From positions 24,552,001 to 24,616,000 of the forward strand of contig OZ024763.1 in assembly GCA_964016885.1 (NCBI GenBank): a stretch of 64,000 nucleotides of DNA. The letters run 5' to 3'. Below the pieces are notes generated by a model. It was not told where the DNA came from. It did no database searches and saw nothing but the letters and a program-made list of their open reading frames with translations. The translations under genes and the position numbers were made by a program. This DNA is from Eledone cirrhosa. Lineage: Eukaryota. Below, in pieces: positions 11,405 through 39,977 of the stretch. Within the stretch, counting starts at the first letter, position 1; every line of letters begins with the position of its first letter.

Positions 11405-12602
<1,198 letters not shown>

Positions 12603-13135: not shown

Positions 13136-13141
<6 letters not shown>
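12855..13141. mobile_element. Palindromic insertion in (TA)n; 3' end shared with 32700-32835 and related to 44117-44690
   Basis: Arms of ~120 bp are inverted about 13020, with an extra ~40-nt tail on the left. The motif atgaccctccc(c/a)aa.tataacaatat is shared among these loci. Confidence 0.7.
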
Positions 13142-13209
<68 letters not shown>

Positions 13210-13214
13210 GTATG

Positions 13215-13247
<33 letters not shown>

Positions 13248-13326
13248 GTATGTATATATATATATATATGTATATATATATACGTATGTGTATATATATA
13301 TATGTATATATATATATATACGTATG

Positions 13327-13381
<55 letters not shown>

Positions 13382-13446
13382 GTTTGTATATATATATATG
13401 TTTATATATATATATATATATATACGTTTGTATATATATATATGTT

Positions 13447-13507
<61 letters not shown>

Positions 13508-13539
13508 GTTTATATATATATATATGTATATATATATAT

Positions 13540-13591
<52 letters not shown>

Positions 13592-13596
13592 GTATG

Positions 13597-13647
<51 letters not shown>

Positions 13648-13678
13648 ATATATGTATATATATATATATATACGTATG

Positions 13679-13712
<34 letters not shown>

Positions 13713-13724
13713 TATATACGTATG

Positions 13725-13812
<88 letters not shown>

Positions 13813-13853
13813 TGTATGTATGTATATATATATGTATATATATATATATATGC

Positions 13854-13918
<65 letters not shown>

Positions 13919-13965
13919 TATACATATATATATATATATATGTATATACATATATATATATATAT

Positions 13966-15177
13966 ATTAAGATAAGCAGAACAAGTAAAATTCAATCAAT
14001 TTTTCAAAATACATTAAAAAATATAATATAAATATTTACCTCTTCTAGTGGCCCTTACTGATCAGTTTCGCTTTGTAAAACCTCATAAATCCGATGGATT
14101 CATGATGGAAAACCAAAGCTCATCAGAGAAGCATTTTCCCATCCTAGGGCTAAACGTCCCAGGAACGACAAAATATACAACCTCCTGCCAGCTAATAAAG
14201 GTCTGAAAGGTCGTAAAAGTGACCCGTATGTAAACTGGACCGAAGTAAAAGCGGGAAAATCAAAGACTTGCTGTCTACAATTACTACTAAAGAAATAGCA
14301 GCCTAGTAAAGCAACAGATTTGTTCTCAACGGACGGAGAAAAAGGTATAAGTTAATATGTCCAGGGATACTAGGTACCCCTAGAAATACATAGGTTGTCT
14401 ATGATTCAGGGTTGTTCAATGGTGTTAATTTGATACACCAGAACTTTAATATTAAGATAAGCAGAACAAGTAAAATTCAATCAATTTTTCAAAATACATT
14501 AAAAAATATAATATAAATATTTACCTCTTCTAGTGGCCCTTACTGATCAGTTTCGCTTTGTAAAACCTCATAAATCCGATGGATTCATGATGGAAAACCA
14601 AAGCTCATCAGAGAAGCATTTTCCCATCCTAGGGCTAAACGTCCCAGGAACGACAAAATATACAACCTCCTGCCAGCTAATAAAGGTCTGAAAGGTCGTA
14701 AAAGTGACCCGTATGTAAACTGGACCGAAGTAAAAGCGGGAAAATCAAAGACTTGCTGTCTACAATTACTACTAAAGAAATAGCAGCCTAGTAAAGCAAC
14801 AGATTTGTTCTCAACGGACGGAGAAAAAGGTATAAGTTAATATGTCCAGGGATACTAGGTACCCCTAGAAATACATAGGTTGTCTATGATTCAGGGTTGT
14901 TCAATGGTGTTAATTTGATACACCAGAACTTTAATATTAAGATAAGCAGAACAAGTAAAATTCAATCAATTTTTCAAAATACATTAAAAAATATAATATA
15001 AATATTTACCTCTTCTAGTGGCCCTTACTGATCAGTTTCGCTTTGTAAAACCTCATAAATCCGATGGATTCATGATGGAAAACCAAAGCTCATCAGAGAA
15101 GCATTTTCCCATCCTAGGGCTAAACGTCCCAGGAACGACAAAATATACAACCTCCTGCCAGCTAATAAAGGTCTGAA
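13966..15177 (-). mobile_element. Tandem array of 2.5 apparently identical 485-bp units, each with an HHR (retrozyme-like or tandem pLTR)
   Basis: Units start at 13966, 14451 and 14936. No ORF of note. Flanked by (TA)n. Confidence 0.88.
14051..14132 (-). ncRNA. Type I hammerhead ribozyme (further copies at 14536-14617 and 15021-15102)
   Basis: Minus strand: gcttct-CTGATGA-gctttg...caaagc-GAAA-ctgatcag-TA-agggc. Stem III is palindromic. Confidence 0.82.
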
Positions 15178-15182
15178 TATGC

Positions 15183-15213
<31 letters not shown>

Positions 15214-15451
15214 TGCATATACATATATATATATATATGCATATACATATATATATGTATGTATATATATATGCATATACATATATATATTTATATATGC
15301 ATATATATATATATATATATAAGGGAGAGAATCGGGAGTGTGTAACACTCCACTTATCAAATAGGCAGTATATGGTTAGCTCAATGTCAGAGGACAGAGC
15401 CGTAATACAATTAACAACAAAGAGCGCTTAGAACATAGGTATATCTTTAAT

Positions 15452-15497
15452 TGCTAACAGTGTTTCGTCCACACTAGAAGTGGGACTCTTCAGAGCA
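15452..15497 (-). ncRNA. Minimal type I hammerhead ribozyme (family E)
   Basis: Minus strand: tgct-CTGAAGA-gtcc cac ttcta gtg t ggac-GAAA-cactg-TT-agca. Confidence 0.8.
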
Positions 15498-31139: not shown

Positions 31140-31560
31140 AGGTGAGTTTTATTGTAGTACAATAAAGCAATGCAGATATCGGATAAGAAGCACTCTACAG
31201 TTTGTAGGACTGGAGTATACATAATATATAAGATCAAAAGATGGTTAAAAGAGTTCCATGTATTTTATTATGTGCATTTCAAAAACAAATATCATCATGC
31301 AATAATATTTGTGTTTTCATCAGATAAAACAGGAAGACATGATATGAAGGTTAAAAAACACTTGTGGATAGTGCAGTTTTAAATCAACATATCGATTAAA
31401 ATATCGATTTAAAACTGCACTATCCACAAGTGTTTTTTAACCTTCATATCATGTCTTCCTGTTTTATCTGATGAAAACACAAATATTATTGCATGATGAT
31501 ATTTGTTTTTGAAATGCGCATAATAAAATACATGGAACTCTTTTAACCATCTTTTGTTCT

Positions 31561-37812: not shown

Positions 37813-38019
37813 AGATCAAAAGATGTGTTCCATGTATTTTATTATGCGCATTTCAAAAACAAATATCATCATGCAATAACATTTGTGTTTTCATCAGATA
37901 AAATAGGAAGACATGATATGAAGGTTAAAATACACTTGTGAATAGTGCAGTTTTAAATCAACATATATATATATATATGGATGGCGATATATATATATAT
38001 AAATCAACATATATATATA

Positions 38020-39912: not shown

Positions 39913-39977
39913 TATTTTATCTGATGAAAGCACACCATAATTTAACTTGGTGTCCTTGAAATATGTATAATGAAATA
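39913..39977 (+). ncRNA. Type I hammerhead ribozyme (family I; relatives at 56806-56872 minus, 57057-57122 plus, 57831-57897 minus)
   Basis: tattttat-CTGATGA-aagcacacca..tggtgtcctt-GAAA-tatgta-TA-atgaaata. Confidence 0.72.

What the first reader, a model, noticed from the sequence alone, without database searches (positions are those of the whole stretch)
13966..15177. 485-bp HHR tandem array that looks like a retrozyme (possible circular RNA intermediate)
Seen: 2.5 apparently identical non-coding units with one HHR each (three in total), inserted in (TA)n. Established: metazoan non-LTR retrozymes are HHR-punctuated tandem repeats whose transcripts are cleaved to monomers and circularise. Inference: the partial-tandem form fits rolling reverse transcription of a 485-nt circle, and unit identity implies a recent event.
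Basis: partly seen in the sequence, partly recalled or inferred. Interest (0 to 1): 0.75.

Follow-up and report, generated by a model that had tools for sequence, protein, structure and literature searches.

The report
Hammerhead retrozyme array in TA microsatellite
A 485-base non-coding repeat with a hammerhead-ribozyme motif lies here as 2.5 identical copies inside a TA microsatellite and recurs in many other TA microsatellites of this genome; it is a young member of the known 'retrozyme' kind of mobile element, likely copied by Penelope-like retrotransposon enzymes and probably from a small circular RNA.

Summary
Window 13964-15177 is a 485-bp tandem repeat of 2.5 copies at 100% identity, flanked by (TA)n. 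Each unit has a complete hammerhead core on the minus strand. Rfam does not call the motif, because helix II is 50 nt long, but a descriptor matches it (3 of 5000 shuffles do). Two diverged sister families of 459-467 and 516 nt keep the core, with compensatory changes in all three helices.

The unit is not single-locus: a 22-mer across the cleavage site occurs 608 times genome-wide. I examined 35 loci (49 arms). The arrays hold no ORF, 47 of 49 3' flanks are (TA)n, and the 3' ends fall at two fixed sites (h=92 or h=195). The 5' ends vary, and 14 loci are head-to-head twin arms, 12 of them pairing one end of each type. This is the insertion anatomy of Penelope-like elements, which are abundant in this genome.

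Array-private variants are all-or-none, which fits rolling copying of a monomer-length template. RNA circles, self-cleavage and the autonomous partner remain untested or unfound.

Verdict: a new, young member of the animal non-LTR retrozymes in a mollusc-type genome. It is useful for working out how retrozymes are primed, but it is not a new kind of element.

The parts
13140..13963 (.). (TA)n-rich microsatellite abutting the 3' end of the element (minus-strand sense)
   Evidence: TRF 13140-13967, period 2/4; sequence
13964..15177 (-). Retrozyme array of family F1: 2.5 units of 485 nt, read on the minus strand. The 5'-truncated end is at 15177 (h=334) and the 3' end is at 13964 (h=92, site A)
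   Evidence: locus L007 is this place
14050..14132 (-). Hammerhead motif 1. Helix I 14127-14132 with 14050-14055; CUGAUGA 14120-14126; helix II 14070-14119; GAAA 14066-14069; palindromic helix III 14058-14065; U16.1-A17 14057-14056; predicted cut 14056|14055
14535..14617 (-). Hammerhead motif 2 (identical; predicted cut 14541|14540)
15020..15102 (-). Hammerhead motif 3 (identical; predicted cut 15026|15025)
14056..14540 (-). One full monomer between two predicted cleavage sites (h=1 at 14540, h=485 at 14056). This is the RNA that would circularise
   Evidence: Fold -138.2 kcal/mol against -106.4 +/- 5.1 for shuffles, z -6.26, 0 of 100 shuffles as low
13964..13979 (-). Site A 3' terminus ...CUGCUUAUCUUAAUAU joined to (AU)n. 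This is the priming site used by this array
   Evidence: 30 of 49 arms end at h=92/94. The homologous ends are h'=86 in F2 and h3=125 in F3
14346..14356 (-). Internal site B (...AUUAACUUAUA, h=185-195). It is the alternative 3' end at other loci and is not used here. The second copy lies at 14831-14841
   Evidence: 17 of 49 arms end at h=195/198
14414..14444 (-). Hairpin GUUCUGGUGU-AUCAAAUUA-ACACCAUUGAAC, the best conserved block outside the ribozyme in all three families. The second copy lies at 14899-14929
   Evidence: (pair 138/150 changes G-C to A-U)
15178..15321 (.). TA-rich microsatellite at the 5' junction. It carries the same GCATATAC variant motif as the left flank

Best explanation
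The array is one young insertion of a 485-nt non-coding retroelement of the animal non-LTR retrozyme kind, which is likely mobilised by the reverse transcriptase-endonuclease of a Penelope-like element (PLE). Shown: each unit carries a full hammerhead core on the minus strand. The unit occurs as ORF-less tandem arrays inside (TA)n at many loci, with two fixed 3' ends, variable 5' ends and frequent head-to-head twin arms. Inferred: transcripts of an array would be cut by the hammerhead (probably acting as a dimer through its palindromic helix III) into 485-nt monomers, which a host ligase would circularise. A PLE endonuclease nicks a (TA)n tract. The TA 3' end anneals to one of two UUAUA(U) stretches of the RNA (site A at h=92, site B at h=195) and primes reverse transcription. 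Copying goes round the monomer more than once and gives multi-unit cDNA. The second DNA end often primes on the other site of the same template, giving the inverted arm. The 5' ends are joined by microhomology. In this window only site A was used and the copy stopped after 2.5 rounds.
For: Hammerhead: the core is complete and the descriptor hits 3 of 5000 shuffles. F1 against F2 (61% identical overall) keeps the core, and 5 of 14 helix pairs change on both sides, against 0-1 in slid controls. F3 changes CUGAUCAG to CUGUACAG, which is still a palindrome.
Structured RNA: z -6.26. The three-family consensus has 102 pairs, 26 with compensatory changes.
Mobility: there are 608 exact 22-mers against 0 in the control. 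The 100 listed matches fall in 63 places on C1 (my hand count).
Insertion anatomy in 35 loci (49 arms): 47 of 49 3' flanks are (TA)n, 3' ends lie at h=92/94 (30) or h=195/198 (17) with 2 others, and 5' ends lie anywhere. All 14 two-arm loci are head-to-head, and 12 pair site A with site B, with 0 homotypic. Over the three families 22 pairs are heterotypic against 1 homotypic (p about 3e-6).
Site use follows sequence: copies with A193C in site B use it in 2 of 17 arms, against 15 of 30 otherwise (p=0.012).
Monomer-length template: array-private variants are in every unit (245insT in 14 of 14 intact full units of L046, a 15th rearranged unit lost in a bad alignment; 5C>T in 4 of 4; 381G>C in 2 of 2). 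Both arms share rare subfamilies at L052 and L049, and no examined array mixes subfamilies.
Machinery: all 150 scored GIY-YIG candidates (of 10,597) pass the cut-off. ORFs have RT plus a C-terminal GIY-YIG with a C-x5-C-x2-C linker, the linker proposed to favour (TA)n (PMC8557442, passages). That paper describes the same partial tandems, inverted 5'-truncated copy, one-sided 'tail' and microsatellite bias.
Against: No Rfam hammerhead model reaches threshold. Helix I in F1 and F3 has two G-U pairs and a C-C mismatch. Helix II is 50 nt, and I identified no loop-loop contacts. The MFE of the isolated 115-nt region pairs the CUGAU box with the helix III palindrome instead of forming the active fold. 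There is no evidence on RNA: no holder is on record as RNA, and the runs are contigs of unknown kind. No autonomous partner was found: 30 PLE loci share no homology with F1-F3. 5' ends do not fall exactly at the cleavage site. An apparent peak at h=1 was a query-boundary artefact, and the true ends there are h=472-485. Two arrays carry partial variants in period-4 and period-3 patterns (L047 and the C4:2683 array), which need DNA-level duplication or a multimeric template. The loci were picked from the best matches to this window's unit, so they over-represent the youngest subfamily.
Confidence: 0.7

Rival explanations
1. Same element and same PLE-type integration, but the template is a linear multimeric read-through transcript of a source array, not a circle. 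The hammerhead would be dispensable or would only trim transcripts.
For: 3' ends are fixed internal sites, not cleavage-site ends, and arms read through the cleavage site without scars. Autonomous PLEs also form partial tandems, and PLE clades that lack canonical hammerheads proliferate well (PMC8557442, passages). The period-4 and period-3 variant patterns in L047 and the C4 array fit multimeric templates.
Against: Array-private variants sit in all units of young arrays (L046, L050, L054). L046 has star-like singletons and no higher-order pattern, so a monomer bottleneck is needed. Linear copying can only shorten arrays from one generation to the next, yet arrays of 9.8 and 15.7 units exist. 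The hammerhead core is kept across families that are 61% identical.
Confidence: 0.2
2. The unit is just the terminal repeat (pLTR tail) of an ordinary 5'-truncated PLE insertion in its usual tandem-plus-inverted form, not a separate element.
For: The twin-arm, one-sided 'tail' and (TA)n features are those of PLEs. PLE endonuclease fragments lie within about 0.5-1.5 kb of three arrays (L004/L005, L062, L072). An earlier scan note on another genome reached this verdict for a 302-nt unit.
Against: The repeat period equals the 485-nt unit in every one of the 49 arms, up to 15.7 units, and no arm runs into coding sequence. The nearby endonuclease fragments are separate insertions with their own junctions and share no homology. 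No frame exceeds 83 aa.
Confidence: 0.04
3. The array is a plain satellite spread by DNA-level processes (unequal crossing-over, segmental duplication, eccDNA), and the hammerhead-like motif is chance or a relic.
For: Some copies are clearly DNA-level duplications: L112 is a 2780-bp higher-order repeat of an insertion plus its microsatellite, and three loci lie about 100 kb apart on C1. Rfam is negative.
Against: Precise 3' ends, variable 5' truncation, the heterotypic twin arms and the strict (TA)n context at loci on many chromosomes are signatures of reverse transcription. The motif hits 3 of 5000 shuffles and is conserved with compensatory changes.
Confidence: 0.03

Closest known systems
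Animal non-LTR retrozymes (Cervera & de la Pena 2020, PMC7229834; review PMC7761336; Li, Clavereau & Pollet 2026 preprint, 10.64898/2026.07.22.740005)
   Same: Tandem units of a few hundred bp, each with a type I hammerhead. No ORF, LTR, PBS or PPT. GC is low (36%). Copies are dispersed and the predicted RNA is highly self-paired. A derivation from PLEs is proposed. The preprint reports unit lengths of 51-972 bp and mostly up to 7 repeats.
   Different: Helix II is 50 nt, so standard models miss the motif. Insertion is confined to (TA)n. Two fixed 3' ends are paired in inverted twin arms. The 2020 review states that no conserved motif pointed to the mobilising element (section 7). Expression and circles are shown for coral, mussel and axolotl but not here.
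Endonuclease-positive Penelope-like elements with a CX2-5CxxC linker (Neptune/Nematis type; Craig et al. 2021, PMC8557442)
   Same: Partial tandems, an adjacent inverted 5'-truncated copy, an extension ('tail') at only one end, a (TA)n or microsatellite bias, and a hammerhead near the 3' end (passages). Such PLEs are abundant in this genome.
   Different: The 485-nt unit encodes nothing. Its one-sided extension is 103 nt, not 30-40 bp. I found no sequence homology to 30 sampled PLE copies.
Dimer-dependent type I hammerheads: newt/axolotl satellite hammerheads and minimal PLE hammerheads (PMC7229834 passages; Lunse et al. 2017 and Cervera & de la Pena 2014, known to me only through the review's text)
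   Same: Helix III is weak as a monomer (3 bp) and palindromic (CUGAUCAG in F1, CUGUACAG in F3), so two copies can form a long shared helix III. F2 and F3 have a U-U at the base of helix II, as described for axolotl HHR_Amex2.
   Different: Helix II is far longer. Dimer cleavage is only predicted here.

Membership tests
Hammerhead ribozyme, type I | Conserved core: C3 U4 G5 A6 N7 G8 A9, G12 A13 A14, A15.1-U16.1, H17 (not G) | tested here: met
   CUGAUGA...GAAA...UA^ on the minus strand of every unit. The core is kept in F2 (CUGAAGA) and F3
Hammerhead ribozyme, type I | Three helices around the core, with helix I open (type I topology) | tested here: met
   Helix II has a 6-7 bp base plus a long hairpin. 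Helix III has 3 bp or a palindromic dimer. Helix I has 4 bp, a C-C mismatch and 2 more bp in F1, and 5 perfect bp in F2. 5 of 14 pairs are compensatory between F1 and F2
Hammerhead ribozyme, type I | Score at or above the Rfam gathering threshold (RF00163 and clan CL00010) | tested here: not met
   No hit. The best is a truncated RF00008 match of 11.3 bits, E=9.2. The neighbouring canonical motif also fails, at 18.4 against 34 bits
Hammerhead ribozyme, type I | Loop-loop tertiary contacts between helices I and II | tested here: inconclusive
   No obvious loop 1. An internal loop of helix II could stand in for loop 2. Judged by eye only
Hammerhead ribozyme, type I | Self-cleavage at the predicted site | not testable with these tools
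   Needs in vitro transcription of monomer and dimer constructs
Animal non-LTR retrozyme | Head-to-tail repeats of a few hundred bp, one hammerhead per unit, non-coding | tested here: met
Animal non-LTR retrozyme | Dispersed at many loci as monomers to multimers (mobile, not a single local duplication) | tested here: met
   Arm lengths run from 0.05 to 15.7 units
Animal non-LTR retrozyme | Monomer RNA predicted to be highly self-paired | tested here: met
   z -6.26. Conserved structure across three families
Animal non-LTR retrozyme | Expressed as linear and circular monomer RNA | not testable with these tools
   No RNA holder was listed. The four runs are contigs of unknown kind
Animal non-LTR retrozyme | Sequence relationship to the pLTR of a resident PLE (criterion of the 2026 preprint) | tested here: inconclusive
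   0 of 30 sampled PLE loci are homologous. The sample is tiny against 10,597 GIY-YIG candidates
PLE-type insertion | Partial tandem, inverted 5'-truncated copy, one-sided terminal extension and microsatellite target | tested here: met

The most novel reading that the evidence does not exclude
The heterotypic twin arms and the all-or-none array variants are the genomic footprint of one monomeric circular RNA that is captured by both DNA ends of a break in (TA)n and copied by rolling-circle reverse transcription from two fixed UUAUA priming sites. That would be the first sequence-level read-out of how animal retrozyme circles are primed and integrated. It would also explain the long-noted one-sided 'tail' of Penelope-like insertions as the distance between two priming sites.
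Probability: 0.35. Interest if true: 0.65.

Novelty: new member of a known kind. Interest (0 to 1): 0.5.

Why it matters
Retrozymes are accepted as a class, but how the animal ones are primed, and whether the circle is really the template, is still open. The 2020 review found no motif that points to the mobilising element. This genome offers an unusually clean natural data set: three related families of different ages, hundreds of near-identical insertions, two defined 3' ends, a point mutation that shifts end choice, and twin arms that obey a pairing rule. That turns the priming question into something a genome-wide census and a simple retrotransposition assay could answer. It also shows that hammerheads with a long helix II are invisible to Rfam-based annotation. 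In my library searches the one paper that pairs 'retrozyme' with octopus or cephalopod terms among the listed rows does not link them.

Tried and rejected
1. Rfam at gathering and at E<=10 gave no usable hammerhead call. I kept this as a failed membership feature.
2. RNA evidence: no RNA holder was listed. Laying the four coded runs gave only short contigs of unknown kind with high word depth. This says nothing about expression, but it exposed related families.
3. A peak of 5' ends exactly at the cleavage site was an artefact of where my query began. The true ends there are h=472-485, so there is no genomic proof of cleavage.
4. Per-position conservation in 13 full F2 copies had too little variation to test selection on the ribozyme.
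5. Autonomous partner: BLAST of F1-F3 against 30 PLE loci, conserved-motif greps and Smith-Waterman against one PLE 3' UTR whose terminus resembles site A (score 23 against a null of 22.5 +/- 2.7) found nothing.
6. Two 22-mer hits 2780 bp apart looked like an ORF-bearing copy. They are a duplicated insertion plus its microsatellite.
7. Pfam on 11 window ORFs gave no families.
8. The protein atlas on a PLE ORF confirmed PLE-type domains but gave no host taxon.
9. Host placement: PF00379 (arthropod cuticle) and PF07654 (Ig C1-set) gave no match, and the tool warns that this does not prove absence. PF14830 gave 37 matches.
10. Earlier-findings look-ups by place and by sequence found nothing.

Full report
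OBSERVATION. Tandem Repeats Finder reports window 13964-15177 as a repeat of period 485, 2.5 copies, 100% matches, no indels and score 2428. It lies between TA-rich microsatellites at 13140-13967 and 15183-15321. No stop-to-stop frame inside a unit exceeds 83 aa. On the minus strand every unit reads GCUUCU-CUGAUGA-(50 nt)-GAAA-CUGAUCAG-UA^AGGGCC. That is every conserved hammerhead position: C3-A9, G12-A14, A15.1-U16.1 and H17=A. The predicted cuts are at 14056|14055, 14541|14540 and 15026|15025. I number the unit from the cut, so h=1 is window 14055 or 14540 and h=485 is A17.

IS THE HAMMERHEAD REAL? Rfam does not support it. There was no hit at gathering score in the whole window and none at E<=10 over 13900-15250. 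On 14030-14160 there was only a truncated Hammerhead_3 match of 11.3 bits, E=9.2. As a control, a more canonical hammerhead 280 bp away (15450-15498, minus strand) also reaches only 18.4 bits against a threshold of 34. The models are therefore weak for this genome's variants.

A descriptor of my own (core, at least 3 bp closing helix II, A15.1-U16.1 plus at least 1 bp in helix III, at least 4 consecutive or 6 of 7 pairs in helix I) hits the real unit on the minus strand only. It hits 3 of 5000 dinucleotide shuffles.

The stronger evidence is comparative. By chance, a locus fetched for another reason held a 459-nt tandem unit in (TA)n (L043:6510-7419). This unit aligns with the 485-nt unit over its whole length at 61% identity. 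It has the same motif at the same place: GCUGU-CUGAAGA-(50 nt)-GAAA-CCGUCGG-UA^ACAGC. On an alignment of the window's motif with 15 distinct copies of this second family (F2), 5 of 14 helix pairs differ on both sides while staying paired (one in helix I, three in helix II, one in helix III). Slid controls give 0-1. These are in effect two lineages, so each pair counts as one event.

A third family (F3, 516 nt, 85% identical to F1) came from a loose end in the laid contigs and has 179 exact 18-mer matches in the genome. It keeps the core and changes helix III from CUGAUCAG to CUGUACAG, which is again a perfect palindrome.

The whole monomer is predicted to be strongly structured: -138.2 kcal/mol against -106.4 +/- 5.1 for shuffles, z -6.26. 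The RNAalifold consensus of the three families has 102 pairs, 26 with compensatory changes, and includes helices II and III.

Weak points remain. Helix I of F1 and F3 has two G-U pairs and a C-C mismatch. I could assign no loop-loop contacts. The isolated 115-nt region prefers a fold in which the CUGAU box pairs with the helix III palindrome.

IS IT MOBILE? The unit is not single-locus. A search of the window's own genome (2.996 Gb; the window is C24:24552001-24616000) gave 185 matches from the 40 scored of 1889 candidates, most at 97-100% identity, on many contigs. A 22-mer across helix III and the cut occurs 608 times, against 0 for the reversed control. The first 100 listed matches, all on C1, fall in 63 separate places by my hand count.

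I examined 35 loci holding 49 arms. They were chosen from the best matches, so they are biased towards the youngest copies.
- Every arm longer than one unit continues as the same 485-nt unit, up to 15.7 units, and none runs into coding sequence.
- 47 of 49 3' flanks are alternating TA.
- The 3' ends lie at h=92/94 (30 arms, ...CUGCUUAUCUUAAUAU|) or h=195/198 (17 arms, ...AUUAACUUAUA|), with 2 elsewhere.
- The 5' ends are scattered. 17 of 49 lie within h=472-485 or h=1-26 (p about 2e-7 against uniform).

An apparent pile-up exactly at h=1 was caused by where my query started. The real ends there are h=472-485. The DNA junctions therefore do not prove cleavage. TA-rich microhomology (h=13-45), or stalling of the polymerase at the base of helix II, may explain the cluster, but I did not test this.

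Fourteen loci have two arms, always head-to-head. Twelve of them pair a site A end with a site B end, none is homotypic, and two have an odd end. F2 ends at the homologous sites h'=86 and h'=191 (2 of 2 two-arm loci heterotypic; the table shows the same by eye). F3 ends at h3=125 and 227/235 (8 of 10 heterotypic, 1 homotypic, 1 odd). Pooled, there are 22 heterotypic pairs against 1 homotypic (p about 3e-6).

Copies with A193C inside site B use that site in 2 of 17 arms, against 15 of 30 for the others (Fisher p=0.012). Arms of one locus are not independent, so this is only a hint that base pairing with the TA primer sets the start.

WHAT COPIES IT? Partial tandems, an inverted 5'-truncated copy, an extension at only one end and insertion into microsatellites, (TA)n above all, are how Craig et al. 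describe Penelope-like elements (PMC8557442, passages). The 103 nt between sites A and B would correspond to their one-sided 'tail'.

PLEs are abundant here. All 150 scored GIY-YIG candidates, of 10,597 in the first look, pass Pfam's cut-off. Five long ORFs (604-1096 aa) match RVT_1, although only one is above the curated cut-off. Three match a C-terminal GIY-YIG by hmmscan. All five carry a C-x5-C-x2-C linker before the endonuclease, which is the linker that paper links to (TA)n preference. An atlas look-up gave HTH_animal/DUF8422/GIY-YIG clusters.

I could not name the partner. None of 30 PLE loci shares homology with F1-F3. One PLE family ends ...GGCTTACTTAATATTT|(TA)n, much like site A, but the local alignment score equals the null. 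PLE endonuclease fragments near three arrays are separate insertions.

CIRCLE OR LINEAR? There is no RNA evidence. Indirect evidence favours a monomer-length template that is copied round and round.
- Variants private to an array sit in all of its units: 245insT in 14 of 14 intact full units of L046 (a 15th unit is rearranged and its alignment failed), 5C>T in 4 of 4 in L050, 381G>C in 2 of 2 in L054 and 140T>C in 3 of 3 in L051.
- L046 otherwise shows only five singletons and no higher-order pattern.
- Unit junctions are seamless.
- No array mixes the co-existing subfamilies.
- Both arms of L052 and L049 share rare variants.

Against this, L047 (period 4) and the C4:2683 array (period 3) have partial variants in higher-order patterns. 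Those need later DNA duplication or multimeric templates. L112 is an outright DNA-level duplication. I put rolling copying of a circular monomer at roughly 0.5-0.6, conditional on the element being a retrozyme.

COMPARISON WITH WHAT IS KNOWN. The element meets the genomic definition of the animal non-LTR retrozymes (PMC7229834, passages; PMC7761336, section 7 and passages). It also fits the PLE derivation argued in the 2026 preprint (abstract and Results part 1), which reports units of 51-972 bp.

It differs in four ways: a 50-nt helix II, strict (TA)n targeting, two fixed ends paired in twin arms, and the host. The genome has 37 matches to the molluscan haemocyanin beta-sandwich domain, 35 of them in five clusters of seven and 2 on C27. 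From recall, that is the octopod/nautilus form, and I take it no further. The arthropod-cuticle and Ig C1-set families gave nothing, with the tool's caveat that this does not prove absence.

Among the listed rows of my library searches, 'retrozyme' stands together with octopus or cephalopod terms only in Craig et al., where I saw no link between them. A 2026 octopus repeat annotation mentions active Penelope families but no ribozymes (passages).

Earlier scan notes (unchecked AI notes) describe a tRNA-bearing tandem unit inserted PLE-style into TA microsatellites in another genome. They also describe a case where a similar-looking array was only a PLE tail. I tested that rival here and rejected it, because the repeat period equals the unit.

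VERDICT. The retrozyme reading is supported by genomic criteria, but RNA and catalysis remain untested. The element is a new, very young member of a known kind. Its clean insertion anatomy is its main value.

Noticed in passing
window 15450-15498 (-): A separate, more canonical type I hammerhead (CUGAAGAG-UCCCAC...GUGGGAC-GAAAC) lies 130-175 bp from the right-hand (TA)n. It scores 18.4 bits, E=0.07, against Rfam Hammerhead_1. Its terminus ...CUCUCCCUU|(AU)n resembles the 3' ends of a PLE family seen in L031-L038.
   Followed up: partly
window 12228-12258(+), 31269-31323(-), 31468-31522(+), 37843-37897(-), 39921-39969(+), 57840-57888(-), 58712-58766(+), 59292-59330(+): Eight more hits of my hammerhead descriptor. 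Several have an 8-bp A/U helix I, a 30-36 nt helix II and palindromic helix III loops (UGCGCA). The hits at 31269 and 31468 form a head-to-head pair. Rfam called none of them at gathering score.
   Followed up: no
L043:6510-7419; L066-L077: Sister family F2 (459-467 nt) is older (85-100% identity to the query) and dispersed: 134 matches from 40 scored of 2281 candidates. It has the same two 3' ends and the same twin arms, and a U-U at the base of helix II.
   Followed up: yes
L078-L096 (e.g. L090:1100-1615, minus strand): Sister family F3 (516 nt, 85% identical to F1) has a roughly 33-nt AT-rich insertion after h=41 and a palindromic helix III, CUGUACAG. Its 18-mer has 179 exact matches.
   Followed up: yes
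L064:1013-1043: The 5' end of an F1 arm (h=95) is joined 5 nt downstream of the predicted cleavage site of a different hammerhead element (...GAAAUAUAUAUA^GCAGU|). This may be a template switch or a nested insertion.
   Followed up: no
L111:4783-4797 and L005:3440-3455: A PLE family with a C-terminal GIY-YIG ends ...GGCTTACTTAATATTT|(TA)n and has an internal CTTATCTTAATAG. Both resemble site A of F1, but there is no extended homology (score equal to the null).
   Followed up: partly
L112 (G000:C1:58191500-58199500): A twin-arm F1 insertion, together with its long microsatellite, is duplicated with a 2780-bp period. This is DNA-level amplification on top of retrotransposition.
   Followed up: yes
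L047:521-5259 and G000:C4:268312421-268317514: Partial variants recur with periods of 4 units (394C>A; 59G>A with 227T>C) and 3 units (123T>C) inside otherwise uniform arrays. A single rolling copy of a monomer does not explain them.
   Followed up: partly
G000:C1:173745629-173909524 and C26:21933048-22016816: Five haemocyanin gene copies, each with seven beta-sandwich domain matches in long open frames. Three lie in tandem on C1 and two are inverted on C26.
   Followed up: no
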